Assembly (NCBI GenBank): GCA_000165345.1
Contig: CM000432.1
Coordinates: 288,001-352,000 of the forward strand
Reading direction: 5' to 3'
DNA: 64,000 nt
Position numbers and translations under genes: made by a program. This document shows positions 9,633 through 34,600 of this stretch, piece by piece; position 1 is the first letter of the stretch; each line of letters starts with the position of its first letter. The notes under the pieces are model-generated. The model worked only from the letters and a program-made list of their open reading frames with translations, made no database searches and was not told the origin of the DNA.

Positions 9633-9829
9633 TATGTTGGATTAATTCGTATATTCTATTTAATTTCAAACCTTAATTACTAATACATAGGAATGTTAGC
9701 TTACGTTATTTATGATCAATTTTCCACTCCAAATCTTTCCTATTATTAAATATCAGATATAAGTAAAAAAGTAAATAAAAAGTCTTTATGCTTATATTTT
9801 TATTTATTCAGCCTTTTAAATAAATTTAT

Positions 9830-9863
<34 letters not shown>

Positions 9864-9960
9864 TTATTTATTTATATTGCCAATGTTTAATTTAGTTTTC
9901 TTTTTTTCCACTAGTTTTCCTCACACCACTTTGGATTCTTTCGTTATTAGTATTGCTGTT

Positions 9961-9970
9961 TTGGCGGGCT
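9961..9970. promoter_or_regulatory. E2F-like box (TTGGCGGGCT) in the divergent promoter between Sec12 (-) and the MBL-fold gene (+)
   Basis: GGCGGG core in an AT-rich spacer, 190 bp upstream of the ATG at 10153 and 330 bp upstream of the ATG at 9632. Confidence 0.4.
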
Positions 9971-10152: not shown

Positions 10153-11217
10153 ATGAAGTTACCATGTGGGATATTATTTGTTGGAACAGGTGTTTCGAGT
10201 TCGGTACCTTTATTACATCATGCATTAAATTCAGAAAATTATAAATGCTTATGTAGCTATGTTGGGAAAAAAGAGGGCCCATATGATATGACAAAGAATA
10301 CTAGAAATAACGTTTCAATTTTAGTTAGAATTCCAAATATAAAAGAAAAAGAGAATGGGGATGATGATTGTTATAATATATTAATTGATTTAGGGAAATC
10401 ATTCAGAGAAGCAGCAATTTCAGTGTTTCCAAATTATAGCATTTCAAAAATAGATTCAGTTATTTTGACACATTTTCATAACGATGCAGTTGCAGGATTT
10501 AGTTCTATATTACATTTTCAACAGAAAAAAGAAACTCTAGTTCCAATTTATTTAAATGCAGAAACTTTGGATCTAGTGAATAAAAGGCATAACAAAATTA
10601 TTAATAACTATGCATTTGAGGACAATTTGGTTAATTCAAAAGATTTGAAACGTAGATATGAATTAAACGTCTTTGATATTTACAATGGTAAAATCGAAAA
10701 ATGTTTGAATTCCAATAAACTATACAATATATTGGATAGCTTTAATAAAGAATCAAAATTCAAAAATAATAAAGAATTTAAGAAAATCGAATTTTCTATT
10801 AATAATATTAAAATAACAGCATTTCCAATGAATCATGGTAATTGTATATGTATGGGGTATTGCTTTCATTTTGAAGAACAAAATGTTATTTATATATCTG
10901 ACTATACATTTCCAATGTTAGATAGTTCTATTGAATTTTTAAATTCTATCAAAGATGAAAAGAGGTCTACACTCATTTTGGATTCCATTTCATATAATAA
11001 AATAAGTAATGCTCATGCAAACATCTCTCAATCTTTGAAATTTATACAAGAATTTTCACCAGATTATGTTTATTTTATTGGTATGTCATGTTCTGTTGAA
11101 CATGATGAGACAAATAAAATTTTAAATAATGAATTAATCAATCTAAAGAATGATGGGAAATGTATCAACACAATTTCTATTGAATTGGCATATGATGGTT
11201 TATTCTTACCTATATAA
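10153..11217 (+). CDS. PhnP-like metallo-beta-lactamase-fold (Lactamase_B_2) protein with a partly retained HxHxDH motif
   Basis: The N-terminus ILFVGTGVSSSVPLL....C.C parallels PhnP (GTGGAQGVPAWGCECAAC). ILTHFHNDAVAGFSSI aligns to PhnP LLTHYHMDHVQGL, giving H-x-H-x-D-A with the last His lost. It is a paralog of the convergent gene 12413..13342. Confidence 0.55.
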   Translation: MKLPCGILFVGTGVSSSVPLLHHALNSENYKCLCSYVGKKEGPYDMTKNTRNNVSILVRIPNIKEKENGDDDCYNILIDLGKSFREAAISVFPNYSISKIDSVILTHFHNDAVAGFSSILHFQQKKETLVPIYLNAETLDLVNKRHNKIINNYAFEDNLVNSKDLKRRYELNVFDIYNGKIEKCLNSNKLYNILDSFNKESKFKNNKEFKKIEFSINNIKITAFPMNHGNCICMGYCFHFEEQNVIYISDYTFPMLDSSIEFLNSIKDEKRSTLILDSISYNKISNAHANISQSLKFIQEFSPDYVYFIGMSCSVEHDETNKILNNELINLKNDGKCINTISIELAYDGLFLPI

Positions 11218-11311
11218 TAAATTAATATTTTATAATTACTTTGATAATTTTTTATAATTAAATATTGGAAAATTCTACAAATATAAAATTCAAAATTAAT
11301 ACTGATTTTAT

Positions 11312-11745
11312 TTACTTTGATGGAATAATTTGAAGAATTTCCTTTGTTTCTTCTTTTGAAACTTCTTTAAGTGCTTTGATAATCAATAAGAATTCAGTTG
11401 CCAGTTTTTGTATTTCAGAATCTTCTGCACTCTGTGGTGGTAGAAACTCAATCTTTGCTTTTCTAGTTTGAACTTCTTGAGCTGCTTGACTGTGGGCTGA
11501 GATATTTTCTATCACTTGATCAGTATTCTAAAATAAATAATTATTCATTAAATTCTAATTAAAAAAAAAAGAAGTTTTTTTTAATTAAACTTTACCTCAG
11601 AAATATCCTCATTTAATTTATCGTGTGCTTCTTTTACCAATGCCATTGGATCAAAAGCTGCAAGAAACATTGTGGTAATTGGTCTTGCATTTGTAACTCC
11701 AAAGAATGCAACTATAATTAAGAACAATATATTGAAAATCTTCAT
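11312..11745 (-). CDS. Small secreted protein, two exons (exon 1 11596..11745, intron 11528..11595, exon 2 11312..11527), about 121 aa
   Basis: The ORF track shows only 11312..11515, which begins with GTG. Upstream on the same strand an ATG at 11745 opens a 50-codon exon (MKIFNILFLIIVAFFGVTNARPITT...HDKLNEDISE) with a classic signal peptide. It ends exactly at a GTAAAG donor. A 68-nt AT-rich intron ends in TTTTAG and joins in phase 0 to NTDQVIENISAHSQ... Confidence 0.55.
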
Positions 11746-11965
11746 AATTTTTTTAATATAGAAAAAAAAATAATAAATTAATAATAAATGTTATTAAATA
11801 AATTGTAAATATTTATTTAATTAATTTTTTTTAGTCACACATTACTATTTTCTCCACTAAACTACTAACATTTTTTTTGCTTGAATTTCTATACCGGTAT
11901 CACTTGTCCACATTAAAAATAATAATAACGATTACGTGTGCAATTAAATTCAATATTTAAATCAA

Positions 11966-11984
11966 GTGCATGCGCATATGCATG
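11966..11984. promoter_or_regulatory. GCATGC palindrome cluster (GTGCATGCGCATATGCATG), 220 bp upstream of the secreted-protein gene
   Basis: Same motif class as at 8082, 37501 and 51790. A TACCGGTAT box lies at 11891..11900 nearby. Confidence 0.35.
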
Positions 11985-12412
11985 TTATTGGACAATTTTT
12001 TTCATGCACAAAAAAAAAAAAAAAATGCAATTTTTTAAAAAATTAGTTAAGAATTAAGTTATTTTTAGGAATGGAGAAATCAGTTGAAGATTTTATTATG
12101 AAAAATTTCTTGATAAAATTGAAAAAAAGAAATGAATAAAGAATATACAAATGTATTGGAATAATTAAATTTTAAGTCAAATGTAATTGAAAGAAAACCA
12201 ATTATTAGCTAATAATTGGAATTATTTGAGAGTCGAAAGATATCGTAAATTTTAACTTGGGAAATTCAATACTATTTTTATCAACGATCTCTTGAACAAA
12301 ATCATGTGAATACTTACAATCAATACTATAAAAGAATATATTCTCAGTATTTATTATATTTGCGCAAAAATTTATTGAATCTTTGATTGATTTTGAATTA
12401 ATCGAAATTGAT

Positions 12413-13342
12413 TCATTTGGGACAATTGGGAAAGATGAGTATATTAATAAGTTGAATCGTTTTTAAAAATGCTAAAGTTTCTTTTGGAATAATAGAATAT
12501 CTTGGAATAATGCAAATCAATTTTTTATCACTTGCATATTCAATACAATATCCAGAAGAAAGTTTATTATCTGAATCAATAAAAAATAATGATGTAATTT
12601 TTATTTCATTGGAATATTGAATAATCACTGGATTCAAAGTTAAGTTTTTATCAATTTCATCACTTATCTCAATATCATTATTCAAGCTAATATAATCATT
12701 AAATTTGGATATTGAATCAATTTTAGTAACATCTGGAGAATTTCTTGGATCAAGTATGTTAAGTTGAACACAACCAACTTTTGTTTTTGATTTTAAATCA
12801 TCTTTTAAAGAATAATTAATTATGTAACTATACCAGTCATTAAATTTGTTTAATGCAGAAGATGTAAAATATATTGGTACTCTAATTTTTGGCTCATAAA
12901 ATACTATTCCATCGTTTCCCACAGGTCTTTCATATTTTTGAACTTCTCTTGTTTCATCTATTCCATTAAAAGATGATTCATCCGAACCCATACAAAAAAT
13001 GGCATCCAATCTATTAATATTTGCAGGTATTGCATATTCTAGCATTGATATTCTAAATGTTGAGCCAATTTCAAAAAGAAATGTATCATGGCGTTCACTT
13101 TCAGAACTATTTAAATTACTAACTGGATTCTTAATTAAAATAGAAAATGGATTACGTACATTTTTATTCTTCATCTTAATTGACTCTTGACATATACCAC
13201 AAAATGGGTCGTTTCCTTTATTAACATTATCTATATTTTTAAATACATGCTCAAGATTTGGCGTACCTTGTTCGGTACCAGAACCTAAGAAAAGAATAAA
13301 GCTACTCATATCTCTTGTTGGCTTATGAGAATGTGCATGCAT
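12413..13342 (-). CDS. PhnP-like MBL-fold paralog with a degraded metal-binding motif (probable pseudo-enzyme)
   Basis: Aligns with the 10153 protein: FILFLGSGTEQGTPNL / ILFVGTGVSSSVPLL; RNPFSILIKNP / RNNVSILVRIP; and DAIFCMGSDESSFNG in place of SVILTHFHNDAVAGF. The His cluster is entirely replaced. The start could instead be the internal Met (MSSFILFLGSG) at 13309. Confidence 0.5.
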   Translation of the reverse strand: MHAHSHKPTRDMSSFILFLGSGTEQGTPNLEHVFKNIDNVNKGNDPFCGICQESIKMKNKNVRNPFSILIKNPVSNLNSSESERHDTFLFEIGSTFRISMLEYAIPANINRLDAIFCMGSDESSFNGIDETREVQKYERPVGNDGIVFYEPKIRVPIYFTSSALNKFNDWYSYIINYSLKDDLKSKTKVGCVQLNILDPRNSPDVTKIDSISKFNDYISLNNDIEISDEIDKNLTLNPVIIQYSNEIKITSLFFIDSDNKLSSGYCIEYASDKKLICIIPRYSIIPKETLAFLKTIQLINILIFPNCPK

Positions 13343-13463: not shown

Positions 13464-13475
13464 GCGCGCCAAATT
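13464..13475. promoter_or_regulatory. E2F-like box (TGCGCGCCAAAT) in a divergent promoter
   Basis: Lies between the minus-strand gene starting at 13342 and the plus-strand gene starting at 13687. Confidence 0.35.
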
Positions 13476-31857: not shown

Positions 31858-32054
31858 TTCCAAATGGTAAATATAGATTATTGCACAATTTATTTGAAAT
31901 TAAAATAGCGAAGAGAAGATAACAATATATAAAGAAAGGGACATTTTTAAGGGCTTTTGATCAATTATCCTATAAATTTGTTCACTTGTTTAAGCTATAT
32001 CTGCCTCTTATACTTTTTATTCTTATCAAAATTTTGGAATGTGTAGAAAATAAT

Positions 32055-32918
32055 ATGGGTGGAGATGGAGGTAGTATTCCAAAAAGAGCAGATGTTGTGA
32101 AAACTAAGGGTTATGGATTTAAGAGAAATTTGGGTGGAATGGGTTACATGCCAAATGCACAAGTAAAATTAACAAATGAAGAAAATTCAACAAAACTTAA
32201 AATGCATGAAAGATGGACAAAATGCTATCTAACTAACGTAAGTTTGTCATTCCATTGCACTTTTTTTTACAAAACTAGTTCTTTGTTTTCTTTGGCATTC
32301 TCAACATATTTAAATATATATTATGAGATTCCAAATGATACAAACCTTCACATTAAGTAATCATTTCCTTTTTTTTTCGAATAAACTAACTATTACCATT
32401 TTCAGGAGCCATTAAATCCCCCAGTGGTAATATGTAACAAGGGATTTCTTTATAACAAAGAAGCTGTTATTAATAAATTACTTAGTAAATCCAAAACAGC
32501 TCCACACATTAAAAAGCTTTCAGATGTATTCCAAGTTAAAGTAAGTAATATTCATCTTGATTACTTTCATCATCTTTATTTATTTATTTATTTTTTTTTT
32601 ACTCTCAACATTTCAATTAATTAATATTTAATTTATGAAATGTACAATAATAATCTTTAGAACAAATTTAACAATATATTAAATTGCTTAATATGTCCAG
32701 TAACTAACAAAAATCTGGATTACTATACCAAAGCTTCATATAATAAATGCTGTCAACATATTATTGCATACTCTTCTTCTTATTTAAAAAGTTCCAATTT
32801 AACCAAAATTGGAGAAAGAAACGTTCAAAATAAACATCAAAAAGTTTGTATTAACTGTAATACTAACATTAATCCACAACATAATGAAATTAAGCTGTTC
32901 TCTGATACAATAGATTAA
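32055..32918 (+). CDS. RTF2: Replication termination factor 2 (Rtf2/RTFDC1)-like protein, three exons (32055..32237, 32406..32540, 32661..32918)
   Basis: The ATG at 32055 gives MGGDGGSIPKRADVVK (compare Rtf2 MGCDGGTIPKRHELVK). The ORF-track start at 31986 is an upstream extension. Donor AAC|GTAAGT at 32238, acceptor TTCAG at 32405. Exon 2 EPLNPPVVICNKGFLYNKEAVINKLLSKS...HIKKLSDVFQVK (compare RRPIVACELGRLYNKDAVIEFLLDKS...HIKSIKNV). Donor AAA|GTAAGT at 32541, acceptor CTTTAG at 32660. Exon 3 ...NCLICPVTNKNLDYYTKASYNKCCQHIIAY... (compare FICPVVGLEMNGRHRFCFLRCCGCVFSE). All junctions are phase 0. Confidence 0.65.
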
Positions 32919-32920
32919 AA

Positions 32921-34600
32921 TTAATCTTCAAAAAATGAAAATCCGTCAGCATAACTTTCGGTTCCTTTTACAGCGTATTCCGGTAATTGATTTTCACCAC
33001 TACTGCCGCCAGAAATTACAAATGGAGATTCAGAAGTTCTTTGTAGTCCTCTTTGTTCATAACCCATACTTCCAAGATATTGAATTTGACCTTGAACGCC
33101 ATCAGTAACATCAATATTTTTAAATGTTCCTTCTGTGCCTCTTAAGTTTCTCATTCCAATACTATCACCTGTTAAATCTCCTCCTCTAGTTCTCTTCCTT
33201 TTAAGTCCATATCCCAATCCTCCTAATAGCCCTAAACCTGCAATACTTCCCACTACCGCTCCAGCTACTACTCCTGGATCGACCGAACTTTTAGTTGTAG
33301 CTGCGGCTGTAGTTGTAGTTAATTCAGTAGAAACTGTTGATGGTGCAGTAGTTGTCATAGTGGTTGGTGTAGTGGTTGGAGGACTTGTTGCTGTTGTTGG
33401 AGGACTTGTTGCTGTTGTTGGAGGACTTGTTGCTGTTGTTGGAGGACTTGTTGCTGTTGTTGGTGGACTTGTTGCTGTTGTTGGTGGACTTGTTGCTGTT
33501 GTTGGAGGACTTGTTGCTGTTGTTGGTGGACTTGTTGCTGTTGTTGGTGGACTTGTTGCTGTTGTTGGAGGACTTGTTGCTGTTGTTGGTGGACTTGTTG
33601 CTGTTGTTGGAGGACTTGTTGCTGTTGTTGGTGGACTTGTTGCTGTTGTTGGAGGACTTGTTGCTGTTGTTGGAGGACTTGTTGCTGTTGTTGGAGGACT
33701 TGTTGCTGTTGTTGGAGGACTTGTTGCTGTTGTTGGAGGACTTGTTGCTGTTGTTGTTGGACTTGTTGCTGTTGTTGGCGGATTTGTATCAGTGCTCAAT
33801 GTTGTGTCAGTGCTCAATGTTGTGTCAGTTGATTGCGTTGTAACTGGAGGTAAAGTTGTTGTTGATGCAGGTGGTGCAACAGGACCTCCTCCAAAGCCAT
33901 ATGTTACTACTTTATCTTTTGGGTCGTCTTGGTTTTCATTTGAAGAAACACCATTCGCGTTTGAATTGTCGGGTTCATCATCTTGATTTTTTCCAGTAAA
34001 ACCAGAATCATCTGACACGGCATCCCCTTCTTGATTCCCTCCAATTGAAAGATTACTTGATGAATCTTGTACAGATGTTGAATCTTTTCTTTGTTCGTCT
34101 GATGAAGTTTCAAACCCGGATGTTTTTTCATAGTCACCATCTTCAAAATCAATGGATGCATCGTTCCCAAAGCCTTGACTGGTTTCCTCGAGATCAGATC
34201 CTCCAACACTAGTACCACCAGCACTAGTACCACCAACACTAGTACCACCAACACTAGTACCACCAATGATCGTACCACCAATGCTCGTACCACCAATACT
34301 CGTACCACCAATACTCGTACCACCGGCACTAGATCCTCCAACACTAGTACCACCAATACTAATACCTCCAATACTAGTTCCATCAATACTCGTACCACCA
34401 ATACTCACTTTATCTTCATTTTCCAAATCAATTCCATCATTAAAACTCATTCCATCAATCCCAGAATTCATGCTCTCTGTTTCCATATTAGGAAGGCTTA
34501 AGTCTGATAATTGAAGACTTTTGTTATCAATTTCTTCTCCATTTAATAAATTCAAAATATTAAAGAAAAAGAAAATTAAAGAAAATATTTTATTATTCAT
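32921..34600 (-). CDS. Mucin-like type I membrane glycoprotein (signal peptide, Gly/Thr/Ser repeats, Thr/Pro repeat array, TM helix, short cytoplasmic tail)
   Basis: The N-terminus MNNKIFSLIFFFFNILNLLNGEE is a signal peptide. It is followed by about 14 copies of GGTS[IV], then an acidic region, then about 19 copies of TTATSPP flanked by TLSTDT repeats. A TM helix (VVAGAVVGSIAGLGLLGGLGYGL) with a KRKRTR stop-transfer follows, then an 85-aa cytoplasmic tail. The Thr/Ser/Pro arrays are typical O-glycosylation substrates. Confidence 0.75.
   Translation of the reverse strand: MNNKIFSLIFFFFNILNLLNGEEIDNKSLQLSDLSLPNMETESMNSGIDGMSFNDGIDLENEDKVSIGGTSIDGTSIGGISIGGTSVGGSSAGGTSIGGTSIGGTSIGGTIIGGTSVGGTSVGGTSAGGTSVGGSDLEETSQGFGNDASIDFEDGDYEKTSGFETSSDEQRKDSTSVQDSSSNLSIGGNQEGDAVSDDSGFTGKNQDDEPDNSNANGVSSNENQDDPKDKVVTYGFGGGPVAPPASTTTLPPVTTQSTDTTLSTDTTLSTDTNPPTTATSPTTTATSPPTTATSPPTTATSPPTTATSPPTTATSPPTTATSPPTTATSPPTTATSPPTTATSPPTTATSPPTTATSPPTTATSPPTTATSPPTTATSPPTTATSPPTTATSPPTTATSPPTTATSPPTTTPTTMTTTAPSTVSTELTTTTAAATTKSSVDPGVVAGAVVGSIAGLGLLGGLGYGLKRKRTRGGDLTGDSIGMRNLRGTEGTFKNIDVTDGVQGQIQYLGSMGYEQRGLQRTSESPFVISGGSSGENQLPEYAVKGTESYADGFSFFED
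33377..33778. repeat. 21-bp tandem repeat, about 19 near-identical copies (GGAGGACTTGTTGCTGTTGTT), encoding TTATSPP on the minus strand
   Basis: Directly visible periodicity. The units differ only by GGA/GGT third-position changes. Confidence 0.9.
34200..34410. repeat. 15-bp tandem repeat, about 14 copies (ACTAGTACCACCAAC variants), encoding GGTS[IV] on the minus strand
   Basis: Directly visible periodicity within the mucin N-terminal domain. Confidence 0.85.

What the first reader, a model, noticed from the sequence alone, without database searches (positions are those of the whole stretch)
10153..13342. Convergent pair of PhnP-like MBL-fold paralogs, one of them a likely pseudo-enzyme
Genes 10153..11217 (+) and 12413..13342 (-) align block by block: GTG/GSG N-terminus with a Cys pair, the RNxxSIL block and the GYC block. 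Copy A retains H-F-H-N-D-A where PhnP-type phosphodiesterases have H-x-H-x-D-H. Copy B has CMGSDESS at that position, so all metal ligands are gone. A small intron-containing secreted-protein gene sits between them. The pair looks like duplication followed by loss of catalysis, possibly leaving a regulatory or binding partner.
Basis: partly seen in the sequence, partly recalled or inferred. Interest (0 to 1): 0.5.

Follow-up and report, generated by a model that had tools for sequence, protein, structure and literature searches.

The report
Enzyme and dead twin sharing one site
Two neighbouring Cryptosporidium parvum genes are ancient duplicates of one nucleotide-cleaving enzyme: one keeps only the metal-binding catalytic residues and the other only the residues that hold the substrate from the partner subunit, so they probably work only as a mixed pair with a single active site.

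Summary

Corrections:
- The 309-aa ORF of B is cut short by one extra G at 12428..12430. The real CDS is 12205..13309 (367 aa), intact in all other assemblies.
- A's HxHxDA is not a private lesion. It occurs in all 48 eukaryotic relatives examined.

The A–small gene–B arrangement is conserved from C. parvum to C. andersoni. B is under purifying selection (dN/dS about 0.2; A about 0.1).

New result: in the Brucella homolog (3md7) the nucleotide sits in the dimer interface. Its phosphate binds the metals of one protomer; its ribose and base are held by Asp96, Arg99 and Tyr127 of the other. A keeps the metal-side residues in 13/13 species and has lost all three trans residues. B shows the exact reverse.

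This predicts an A:B heterodimer with one composite and one dead site. That step is inferred, not shown. Substrate unknown.

The parts
10153..11217 (+). Copy A (cgd4_1120, EAK87633.1), 354 aa. PhnP-like MBL-fold protein and the presumed catalytic subunit.
   Evidence: Pfam Lactamase_B_2 at 47.8 bits, E 1.7e-12. AF2 model pLDDT 91.9; Foldseek top hit 6b9v, E 1e-17, TM 0.87. Exact match to C. parvum Iowa II 'PhnP like hydrolase'.
10471..10488 (+). Copy A motif II, H107-F-H109-N-D111-A112 (HxHxDA).
   Evidence: H, H and D are kept in 13/13 A orthologs. Ala replaces the last His in 13/13 A orthologs and 48/48 eukaryotic relatives.
10495..10518 (+). Copy A 'GFSSILHF', the degenerate remnant of the G-[IL]-D-D-x-R motif. 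The trans-acting Asp and Arg are lost.
   Evidence: The Asp96 equivalent is S/N/G and the Arg99 equivalent is L/Q/K/S in 13/13 A orthologs. Both are D and R in 48/48 outgroups and 3/3 bacteria.
10585..10602 (+). Copy A 'RHNKII', the degenerate remnant of the FxYI motif. The trans-acting Tyr is replaced by K148.
   Evidence: The Tyr127 equivalent is K/S/N in 13/13 A orthologs and Y in all outgroups.
10834..11016 (+). Span holding copy A's other catalytic residues: H228 (10834..10836), D250 (10900..10902) and H288 (11014..11016). H288 aligns with Brucella His219.
   Evidence: All three are kept in 13/13 A orthologs and in at least 47/48 outgroups. They are lost in B, where the ancestral residue survives in at most one of 13 species at each position.
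11312..11745 (-). Small intervening gene (cgd4_1130), 121 aa, with a hydrophobic N-terminus. Exons 11596..11745 and 11312..11527; 68-nt intron 11528..11595.
   Evidence: The spliced translation is identical to C. parvum QOY42003.1/WKS77306.1, 'putative integral membrane protein'. A small gene lies between A and B in C. ubiquitum (121 aa), C. bovis and C. andersoni. No significant Pfam hit.
12205..13309 (-). Copy B (cgd4_1140), true CDS of 367 aa once one spurious base is removed. Catalytically dead MBL-fold paralog.
12428..12430 (.). GGG run (CCC on the coding strand) holding one extra base. It frameshifts copy B in this assembly and creates the 309-aa ORF 12413..13342.
   Evidence: Alignment with the 99.6% identical contig L001 shows CC against CCC. 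The 309-aa product equals EAK87629.1 (Iowa II, 2004). The gene is intact in the C. parvum ATCC, HLJ and 43IA8 assemblies and in C. hominis, C. meleagridis and C. tyzzeri.
12971..12994 (-). Copy B 'CMGSDESS', in the place of motif II (T-H-x-H-x-D-A).
   Evidence: The ligand positions are G/S/T/H, N/D/T and variable across 13 B orthologs. The interleaved positions S, E and S are invariant.
12938..12964 (-). Copy B 'GIDETREVQ'. It retains the G-I-D-[DE]-x-R motif (D129 and R132 in 378-aa numbering).
   Evidence: D and R are invariant in 13/13 B orthologs. hhalign places them on Brucella Asp96 and Arg99. Those two residues bind the ribose of the nucleotide held by the other protomer (PMC3169410).
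12818..12835 (-). Copy B 'WYSYII'. It retains the Tyr (Y173) of the FxYI motif.
   Evidence: Invariant in 13/13 B orthologs and aligned with Brucella Tyr127. Tyr127 stacks on the base from the other protomer.
12316..12318 (-). Copy B Cys342 codon. It is the proposed fourth ligand of the structural metal site, with H32 (13247..13249), C48 (13199..13201) and C51 (13190..13192). It lies downstream of the frameshift, so the 309-aa model lacks it.
   Evidence: H, C, C and C are invariant in A, B and at least 98% of the outgroups. Their assignment as a Zn site is inferred by analogy with E. coli PhnP from my own recollection and was not tested.

Best explanation
Shown: A and B are products of an old local duplication of a eukaryotic PhnP-like MBL-fold phosphodiesterase. 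The duplication is older than the last common ancestor of living Cryptosporidium species. Both copies are kept under purifying selection.

Shown: the two copies have degenerated in complementary ways. A keeps the metal-centre and catalytic residues (H107, H109, D111, H228, D250, H288). It has lost the Asp, Arg and Tyr that this subfamily uses to grip the ribose and base of a nucleotide bound in the neighbouring protomer's active site. B has lost every catalytic residue. It keeps that Asp, Arg and Tyr (D129, R132, Y173), the fold, and the His/Cys3 site.

Inferred: the working enzyme is an A:B heterodimer. It would have one complete composite active site, with metals and chemistry from A and the substrate clamp from B. 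The symmetry-related site would be doubly dead. B would therefore be an obligate non-catalytic 'prozyme' subunit, not a free-standing binder.

Inferred more weakly: the substrate is a nucleotide-type phosphodiester or diphosphate. Its identity is unknown.

For: 2. Age and retention. The order WD40 - A - small gene - B - HAD_Pex22 is the same in C. parvum, chipmunk genotype I, C. ubiquitum, C. bovis and C. andersoni. The A and B clades have 99.5% and 100% bootstrap support with congruent species order.

3. Selection. dN/dS is 0.09-0.11 for A and 0.20-0.23 for B in unsaturated pairs.

4. Structural precedent. In the Brucella homolog the nucleotide lies in the dimer interface. Its phosphate is on the two Mn ions of one protomer. 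Its ribose is bound by Asp96 and Arg99, and its base stacks on Tyr127, 'each from the other protomer' (PMC3169410).

5. Reciprocity.
- Cis residues: A keeps them in 13/13 species, B in about 0/13.
- Trans residues: A keeps them in 0/13, B in 13/13.
- Eukaryotic outgroups keep both sets in 48/48, and bacteria in 3/3.

6. Unbiased scan. Of 63 columns at least 90% conserved in the outgroups, only 6 are kept in B but lost in A. All three trans residues are among those 6 (hypergeometric 20/39711 = 5e-4).

7. Relaxation. The lost positions are variable within each family, as expected for a site with no function.

8. Location. Neither protein has an N-terminal extension, so nothing suggests they sit in different compartments.
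Against: - No physical or structural test of an A:B complex was possible.
- The trans role of Asp, Arg and Tyr is documented for one bacterial homolog, with a product nucleotide that may not be the physiological ligand. It is transferred here by alignment.
- Asp96 and Arg99 are three residues apart, so they are not independent events. The p-value is therefore optimistic.
- Those residues could be kept in B for structural or dimer-contact reasons.
- A could have become a monomer, or changed substrate so that it no longer needs them.
- The whole eukaryotic subfamily, A included, lacks both His ligands of the second metal site. A's own catalytic competence is therefore assumed, not shown.
- The NJ tree does not resolve A and B as sisters (30% bootstrap).
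- The two genes have separate promoters.
Confidence: 0.55

Rival explanations
1. A and B work independently. A acts alone, as a monomer or homodimer, on a substrate that does not need the trans Asp, Arg and Tyr. B is a stand-alone non-catalytic MBL-fold protein (a ligand or protein binder, or a scaffold) that keeps those residues for its own dimer contacts or stability.
For: Pseudoenzymes with functions unrelated to their parent enzyme are common (general knowledge). The genes are convergent with separate promoters. B has its own invariant surface residues absent from relatives, such as S-x-E-x-SF, DWY and KTKVG. There is no direct evidence of a complex.
Against: It does not explain why the only ancestral, otherwise universally conserved residues that A has given up and B has kept include exactly the three trans substrate contacts. 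It also does not explain why B keeps a substrate clamp that would point into a metal-free pocket in a B:B dimer. All 48 single-copy relatives keep both sets.
Confidence: 0.3
2. B has acquired a new catalytic activity that uses different residues in or near the old pocket, for example the invariant Ser, Glu and Asp residues.
For: S120, E122, S124, D129, E130 and E133 are invariant across B orthologs. The position of the motif III His is Asp in 12/13 species.
Against: The former ligand positions themselves vary between species (G/S/T/H; N/D/T; eight different residues at the Asp position), which argues against a used pocket. The invariant Ser and Glu occupy the interleaved 'x' positions of HxHxD(H/A), not the ligand positions. 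No known catalytic motif was recognised by Pfam or NCBIfam.
Confidence: 0.07
3. B is a decaying pseudogene, as the premature stop in this window might suggest.
For: The window's ORF stops at 12413, 69 codons short, because of a 1-nt insertion.
Against: The gene is intact in every other assembly examined, including three other C. parvum assemblies and nine or more other species. The sequence downstream of the frameshift is still open in the shifted frame and conserved. dN/dS is about 0.2. The extra base sits in a homopolymer in the 2004 assembly, so an assembly error or a private mutation is the likely cause.
Confidence: 0.02

Closest known systems
Brucella melitensis BrabA.11339.a (PDB 3md7/3qh8/3py5) and the Koribacter FAD-photoproduct diphosphatase (PDB 6b9v), the bacterial PhnP-like subfamily
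   Different: The bacterial proteins are homodimers in which every chain carries both the cis and the trans residue sets and the full HxHxDH plus motif V His. In Cryptosporidium the two sets are split between two genes. The eukaryotic clade as a whole has HxHxDA and Gly in place of the motif V His.
E. coli PhnP (5-phosphoribosyl 1,2-cyclic phosphate phosphodiesterase of the C-P lyase pathway; PDB 3g1p)
   Different: A scores 45 bits against the PhnP equivalog cut-off of 272 bits. From general knowledge, eukaryotes have no C-P lyase pathway. In the one aligned stretch seen here, PhnP has G-L-F-P-L-R rather than G-L-D-D-x-R.
Trypanosomatid enzyme-prozyme pairs (deoxyhypusine synthase DHSc/DHSp, AdoMetDC/prozyme, PRMT1 ENZ/PRO)
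   Same: A parasite-lineage gene duplication in which a catalytically dead paralog is kept and is needed as a partner of an impaired catalytic paralog. DHS activity rises 3000-fold on heterotetramer formation (PMC3663545).
   Different: Different folds and chemistry. For the Cryptosporidium pair the complex and the activation are predictions only.
MBL-fold catalytic/pseudo-catalytic pairs: tRNase Z long form (dead N-terminal half plus active C-terminal half), CPSF73/CPSF100, INTS11/INTS9
   Same: A duplicated MBL domain in which one copy loses the His/Asp motifs but stays as the obligatory partner of the active copy (general knowledge). These structures appear among the fold matches.
   Different: Those are RNA endonucleases of the RNase Z and beta-CASP branches. 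They are fused in one chain or carry extra domains. Here there are two separate single-domain PhnP-like genes, and the split concerns small-molecule trans contacts.

Membership tests
Metallo-beta-lactamase (MBL) fold superfamily | alpha-beta/beta-alpha sandwich fold recognisable by profile or structure | tested here: met
Metallo-beta-lactamase (MBL) fold superfamily | Metal-binding motifs: HxHxDH, motif III His, motif IV Asp, motif V His | tested here: not met
   A has HxHxDA, the motif III His and the motif IV Asp, but Gly at the motif V metal His. That is 5 of 7 ligands, like all 48 eukaryotic relatives. B has none of them.
PhnP proper (TIGR03307 equivalog) | Score above the curated equivalog cut-off | tested here: not met
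   A scores 45.3 bits against a 272.25-bit cut-off. B has no hit.
PhnP proper (TIGR03307 equivalog) | Genomic context in a phn (C-P lyase) operon | tested here: not met
   The neighbours are a WD40 protein, an AP2 factor, a HAD_Pex22-like protein, a radical SAM protein and a proteasome ATPase.
PhnP-like nucleotide phosphodiesterase/diphosphatase subfamily (Brucella 3md7, Koribacter 6b9v, eukaryotic relatives) | Trans-acting substrate contacts: Asp and Arg of G-[IL]-D-D-x-R and Tyr of FxY | tested here: inconclusive
   Met in B (13/13 orthologs) and not met in A (0/13). Met in 48/48 eukaryotic and 3/3 bacterial relatives. The pair as a whole has one full set.
PhnP-like nucleotide phosphodiesterase/diphosphatase subfamily (Brucella 3md7, Koribacter 6b9v, eukaryotic relatives) | Conserved N-terminal His/Cys cluster plus a C-terminal Cys or His (structural metal site) | tested here: met
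   H23/C32/C34/C313 in A and H32/C48/C51/C342 in B are invariant, and at least 98% conserved in outgroups. Metal binding itself was not tested.
PhnP-like nucleotide phosphodiesterase/diphosphatase subfamily (Brucella 3md7, Koribacter 6b9v, eukaryotic relatives) | Dimeric assembly with the ligand at the interface | not testable with these tools
Dimer geometry is known only for the Brucella homolog.
Prozyme-type enzyme/pseudoenzyme pair | A catalytically dead paralog retained under selection alongside the catalytic paralog | tested here: met
   All catalytic residues are lost in B. dN/dS is 0.20-0.23. B is present with A in every Cryptosporidium genome examined.
Prozyme-type enzyme/pseudoenzyme pair | Physical complex, and activation of the catalytic paralog by the dead one | not testable with these tools
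   Needs co-purification and enzymology, or at least multimer prediction.

The most novel reading that the evidence does not exclude
Cryptosporidium has split a homodimeric enzyme with interface-shared active sites into two genes. Neither can form a complete site alone. cgd4_1120 supplies the metal centre and cgd4_1140 supplies the ribose/base clamp, giving an obligate heterodimer with one live and one doubly dead site. This would be the first prozyme-type pair in the PhnP-like MBL branch and in Cryptosporidium. It would be a genus-specific, parasite-only enzyme architecture.
Probability: 0.5. Interest if true: 0.65.

Novelty: new member of a known kind. Interest (0 to 1): 0.55.

Why it matters
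- **Pseudoenzyme evolution.** This would be an unusually clean sequence-level case of complementary degeneration: cis residues kept in one paralog, trans residues in the other, in 13 of 13 species. It comes with a direct, cheap experimental test.
- **Cryptosporidium biology.** It gives a concrete hypothesis for cgd4_1140, a 'hypothetical protein' that Pfam cannot see, and links it to cgd4_1120. It also defines a parasite-specific enzyme interface in an organism with a very reduced nucleotide metabolism and few drug targets.
- **Annotation.** The Iowa II reference model of cgd4_1140 (EAK87629.1 / UniProt Q5CQD7, 309 aa) is truncated by a 1-nt insertion and lacks the last 69 residues, including a conserved Cys.
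- **The wider family.** The whole eukaryotic PhnP-like clade has lost both His ligands of the second metal site. Its chemistry probably differs from bacterial PhnP and is uncharacterised.

Tried and rejected
- **Pfam and NCBIfam on B, truncated and full length.** No meaningful hit. A weak AnkD hit (E 0.033) was ignored.
- **B-family profile against PDB sequences.** It gave only weak hits to the helical C-terminal domain of PAT1 (E about 0.002) and 6b9v at E 0.1. I rejected the PAT1 hits as compositional. The matched stretch is predicted beta-rich, and fold and profile comparisons point firmly to MBL.
- **Intron instead of frameshift at 12413.** Rejected. There is no plausible GT..AG, and a near-identical contig differs by exactly one base in a homopolymer.
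- **The roughly 17-residue loop after motif II, kept in B and deleted in A, as an RNase Z-like exosite.** Rejected. The loop is eukaryote-specific, varies in length, is absent from the bacterial structures, and from recollection sits at a different position from the RNase Z arm.
- **NJ phylogeny to date the duplication.** A and B are each monophyletic, but their sister relationship is unresolved (30% bootstrap). There is likely attraction to an AT-rich outgroup.
- **Literature and supplement searches.** Searches for cgd4_1120/1130/1140, PhnP with Cryptosporidium, and proteome or expression data found nothing. The 6b9v paper is not held.
- **Unavailable resources.** The afdb50 fold library was not available. 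Model coordinates could not be reached from the scripting tool, so residue distances in the models could not be measured.
- **tRNA, Rfam and tandem-repeat scans.** Nothing relevant was found.
Full report
**Where we are.** The window is AT-rich (22-31% GC across most of the window, one 2-kb stretch at 35%). Three products match Cryptosporidium parvum database entries exactly:
- The 354-aa product of 10153..11217 (+) is identical to C. parvum Iowa II EAK87633.1, 'PhnP like hydrolase of the metallobetalactamase fold'.
- The 309-aa product of 12413..13342 (-) is identical to EAK87629.1/XP_625711.1, 'hypothetical protein'.
- The spliced 121-aa product of the gene between them is identical to C. parvum QOY42003.1/WKS77306.1.

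The locus tags of the newer assemblies (…4g1140) place this on chromosome 4. I therefore call the three genes cgd4_1120 (A), cgd4_1130 and cgd4_1140 (B). These cgd identifiers are my extrapolation from that one tag, not a database result.

**Checking the observation.**
- A against B by BLASTP gives 25% identity over 290 residues, E 1e-11.
- Profiles of the two ortholog families align end to end, hhalign probability 99.9%, E 2.2e-33.
- A has H-F-H-N-D-A at residues 107-112. B has C-M-G-S-D-E-S-S at the aligned place.
- The intervening gene has a 68-nt GT..AG intron (11528..11595) and a hydrophobic N-terminus.

**Correction 1: gene B is longer than the ORF.**
- Past the stop at 12413, the next frame continues with sequence that aligns with the C-terminus of A.
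- A 99.6% identical public contig (L001) differs there by one base: CC on the coding strand where the window has CCC, which is the + strand G run 12428..12430.
- Removing one base gives a 367-aa protein ending at the stop 12205..12207. It is identical to WKS77307.1.
- The gene is intact, at 367 or 378 aa depending on the chosen start, in three other C. parvum assemblies and in C. hominis, C. meleagridis and C. tyzzeri. It is 360-370 aa in chipmunk genotype I, C. ubiquitum, C. canis, C. felis, C. ryanae, C. bovis and C. andersoni.
- The truncation is therefore an error, or a private mutation, of the 2004 Iowa II assembly, and not pseudogenisation.
- More distant orthologs start at the second Met, so the likely start is 13309.

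**Correction 2: HxHxDA is not a lesion of copy A.**
- In an alignment of 13 A orthologs, 13 B orthologs, 48 eukaryotic relatives (Vitrella, Chromera, the gregarine Lankesteria, Platyproteum, a euglenid, ochrophytes and others) and 3 bacterial relatives, Ala replaces the last His of HxHxDH in all 61 catalytic-type eukaryotic sequences.
- In the same sequences Gly replaces the motif V metal His (Brucella His241). Only the bacterial proteins have both His residues.
- The eukaryotic clade as a whole thus lacks both His ligands of the second metal site.
- A keeps everything this clade keeps: H107, H109, D111, H228, D250 and H288. H288 aligns with Brucella His219. I take that to be the His proposed as general acid in PhnP, from my own knowledge and not tested here.

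**What B is.**
- Full-length B matches no Pfam family.
- Its family profile matches the relatives of A, with A itself excluded, at E 4.3e-35.
- In a search of 1.84 billion representatives, the B profile scores Vitrella (98.6 bits) and a Lankesteria protein (103.5 bits) higher than Cryptosporidium's own A (67.7 bits).
- The AF2 model is confident: pLDDT 92.1, pTM 0.91. The alignment used for it included catalytic homologs.
- The A model (pLDDT 91.9) has the same neighbours: 6b9v at E 1e-17 and TM 0.87.
- B has none of the catalytic residues. The former ligand positions vary between species (G/S/T/H; N/D/T; eight different residues at the Asp position).
- Both A and B keep an invariant His plus three Cys (A: H23, C32, C34, C313; B: H32, C48, C51, C342). 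By analogy with PhnP I take these to be a structural zinc site. This is inferred.

**Age and selection.**
- The order WD40 protein - A (+) - small gene (-) - B (-) - HAD_Pex22-like gene is the same in C. parvum, chipmunk genotype I, C. ubiquitum, C. bovis and the gastric species C. andersoni. C. andersoni B is 34% identical to C. parvum B, E 4e-66.
- In a neighbour-joining tree, A and B are each monophyletic (99.5% and 100% bootstrap) with the same species order. The duplication therefore predates the crown of the genus.
- Whether A and B are sisters to the exclusion of other apicomplexan sequences is unresolved (30% bootstrap).
- Adjacency, and a shared roughly 35-residue helical insertion before the motif III strand, favour a local duplication in the Cryptosporidium stem. 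That insertion site is also prone to insertions in other lineages.
- Nei-Gojobori dN/dS in unsaturated pairs (dS 0.37-0.81) is 0.09-0.11 for A and 0.20-0.23 for B. B is constrained, about twice as relaxed as A.

**The key result: the degeneration is reciprocal.**

The paper on the Brucella homolog (PMC3169410) reports a crystallographic dimer with GMP or AMP bound in the dimer interface.
- The phosphate sits on the two Mn ions of one protomer (His86, His88, Asp90, His170, Asp188, His241).
- The ribose is hydrogen-bonded by Asp96 and Arg99, and the base stacks on Tyr127, 'each from the other protomer'.
- From the HMMER alignment, Asp96 and Arg99 are the Asp and Arg of the G-I-D-D-L-R motif that follows HxHxDH. 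Tyr127 is the Tyr of the family's FxY motif.

Conservation of these three residues across the groups:

| Group | Trans residues kept (Asp96, Arg99, Tyr127 equivalents) |
|---|---|
| Eukaryotic relatives | 48/48 |
| Bacterial relatives | 3/3 |
| B orthologs (GIDETREVQ; WYSYII) | 13/13 |
| A orthologs (GFSSILHF; RHNKII) | 0/13, and variable among species |

hhalign of the B family against a profile headed by the Brucella sequence independently gives the same residue pairing: D129-Asp96, R132-Arg99 and Y173-Tyr127.

I also ran an unbiased scan of the 63 columns that are at least 90% conserved in the 48 outgroups:

| Category | Columns |
|---|---|
| Kept in both A and B | 17 |
| Kept only in A (includes every catalytic residue) | 25 |
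| Kept in neither | 15 |
| Kept only in B | 6 |

All three trans residues are among those 6. The chance of that is 20/39711, about 5e-4. This is optimistic, because Asp96 and Arg99 are neighbours in the sequence.

**Mechanism proposed.**
- In single-copy organisms the enzyme would be a homodimer with two composite active sites.
- In Cryptosporidium, an A:A dimer would have metal centres but no ribose/base clamp. A B:B dimer would have clamps pointing into metal-free pockets.
- Only an A:B heterodimer rebuilds one complete site: A's metals and catalytic His plus B's Asp, Arg and Tyr. The symmetry-related site would lack both halves.
- That fits the relaxed, variable residues seen at exactly those positions.

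This is the logic of the trypanosomatid prozyme pairs, for example DHSc/DHSp, where a dead paralog raises activity 3000-fold in a heterotetramer (PMC3663545). Within the MBL fold it is the logic of tRNase Z long form, CPSF73/CPSF100 and INTS11/INTS9 (general knowledge).

What is shown: homology, fold, loss patterns, conservation and selection. What is inferred: dimerisation in the 3md7 geometry, the trans role of the three residues in this clade, catalytic competence of A, and the nature of the substrate. The substrate is probably a nucleotide-type phosphodiester or diphosphate, by analogy with the ligands of 3md7, the title and description of 6b9v, and PhnP. I put the heterodimer model at about 0.55. 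The main rival, independent functions, is at about 0.3.

**Membership.**
- Both proteins belong to the MBL fold and to the PhnP-like branch.
- Neither is PhnP. A scores 45 bits against a 272-bit cut-off, and there is no phn context.
- B fails the metal-motif test entirely. A meets 5 of 7 ligands, like its whole eukaryotic clade.

**Novelty.**
- The genes are annotated. Some newer annotations already label B 'Metallo-beta-lactamase'.
- Full-text searches found nothing on these genes or on a PhnP-like pseudoenzyme in Cryptosporidium.
- The complementary-loss pattern and the composite-site heterodimer prediction appear to be new. They are a new instance of a known kind of system.

Noticed in passing
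window 12428..12430 (within 12205..13342): The reference C. parvum Iowa II model of cgd4_1140 (EAK87629.1 / XP_625711.1 / UniProt Q5CQD7, 309 aa) is truncated by a single extra base in a homopolymer. Newer assemblies give 367-378 aa. Analyses that use the old model miss the last 69 residues.
   Followed up: yes
window 10486..10488 (A112) and 11080..11082 (G310); alignment of 48 eukaryotic relatives: The whole eukaryotic PhnP-like clade (chromerids, gregarines, Cryptosporidium A, a euglenid, ochrophytes) has HxHxDA and Gly in place of the motif V His. Both His ligands of the second metal site are therefore missing in 61/61 sequences. This suggests a mononuclear or remodelled metal centre in an uncharacterised enzyme family.
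   Followed up: partly
window 9961..9968 (+) and 13465..13472 (-); also 16814, 19481, 23305, 29162, 40144, 55297: I take TTGGCG[GC]G for an E2F-like promoter motif. It occurs 8 times in the window against 0.12 expected. One copy lies 192 nt upstream of A and one 156 nt upstream of B, each in the sense orientation. The motif recurs upstream of B in chipmunk genotype I and C. ubiquitum, and upstream of A in C. ubiquitum and C. bovis, but not in C. andersoni. It may point to co-regulation. Both intergenic regions are shared with divergent neighbours.
   Followed up: partly
window 11960..11985: A near-palindromic GC-rich element, GTGCATGCGCATATGCATG, lies about 220 nt upstream of the small gene cgd4_1130. 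It resembles the TGCATGCA-type AP2 motifs of Cryptosporidium promoters, from recollection.
   Followed up: no
window 12006..12026 and 9827..9877: A poly(A)/poly(T) tract between B and the small gene is 3 bases longer here than in the near-identical contig L001. A (TA)n microsatellite upstream of A also differs in length. These are ordinary hypervariable simple repeats.
   Followed up: partly
window 11312..11745 (-): The small 121-aa protein between A and B has a hydrophobic N-terminus, is annotated 'putative integral membrane protein', and has no Pfam family. It keeps its position between A and B from C. parvum to C. andersoni. It has been trapped between the paralogs since before the genus radiated. 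Its function is unknown.
   Followed up: partly
B residues 137-154 (window about 12881..12934) compared with A residues 124-128: A loop of about 17 residues after motif II (ERPxxxDGxxxYxP) is present in B and in other eukaryotic relatives (the gregarine Lankesteria, chromerids) and deleted in all A orthologs. B also keeps the ancestral CxxC where A has CxC. In several respects B is the more ancestral-looking copy, despite being the dead one.
   Followed up: partly
window 32001..34000: This is the only stretch of the window with clearly higher GC (35% against about 22-30%). It has long overlapping ORFs on both strands (32921..34600 -, 33135..33986 +). I did not examine it.
   Followed up: no
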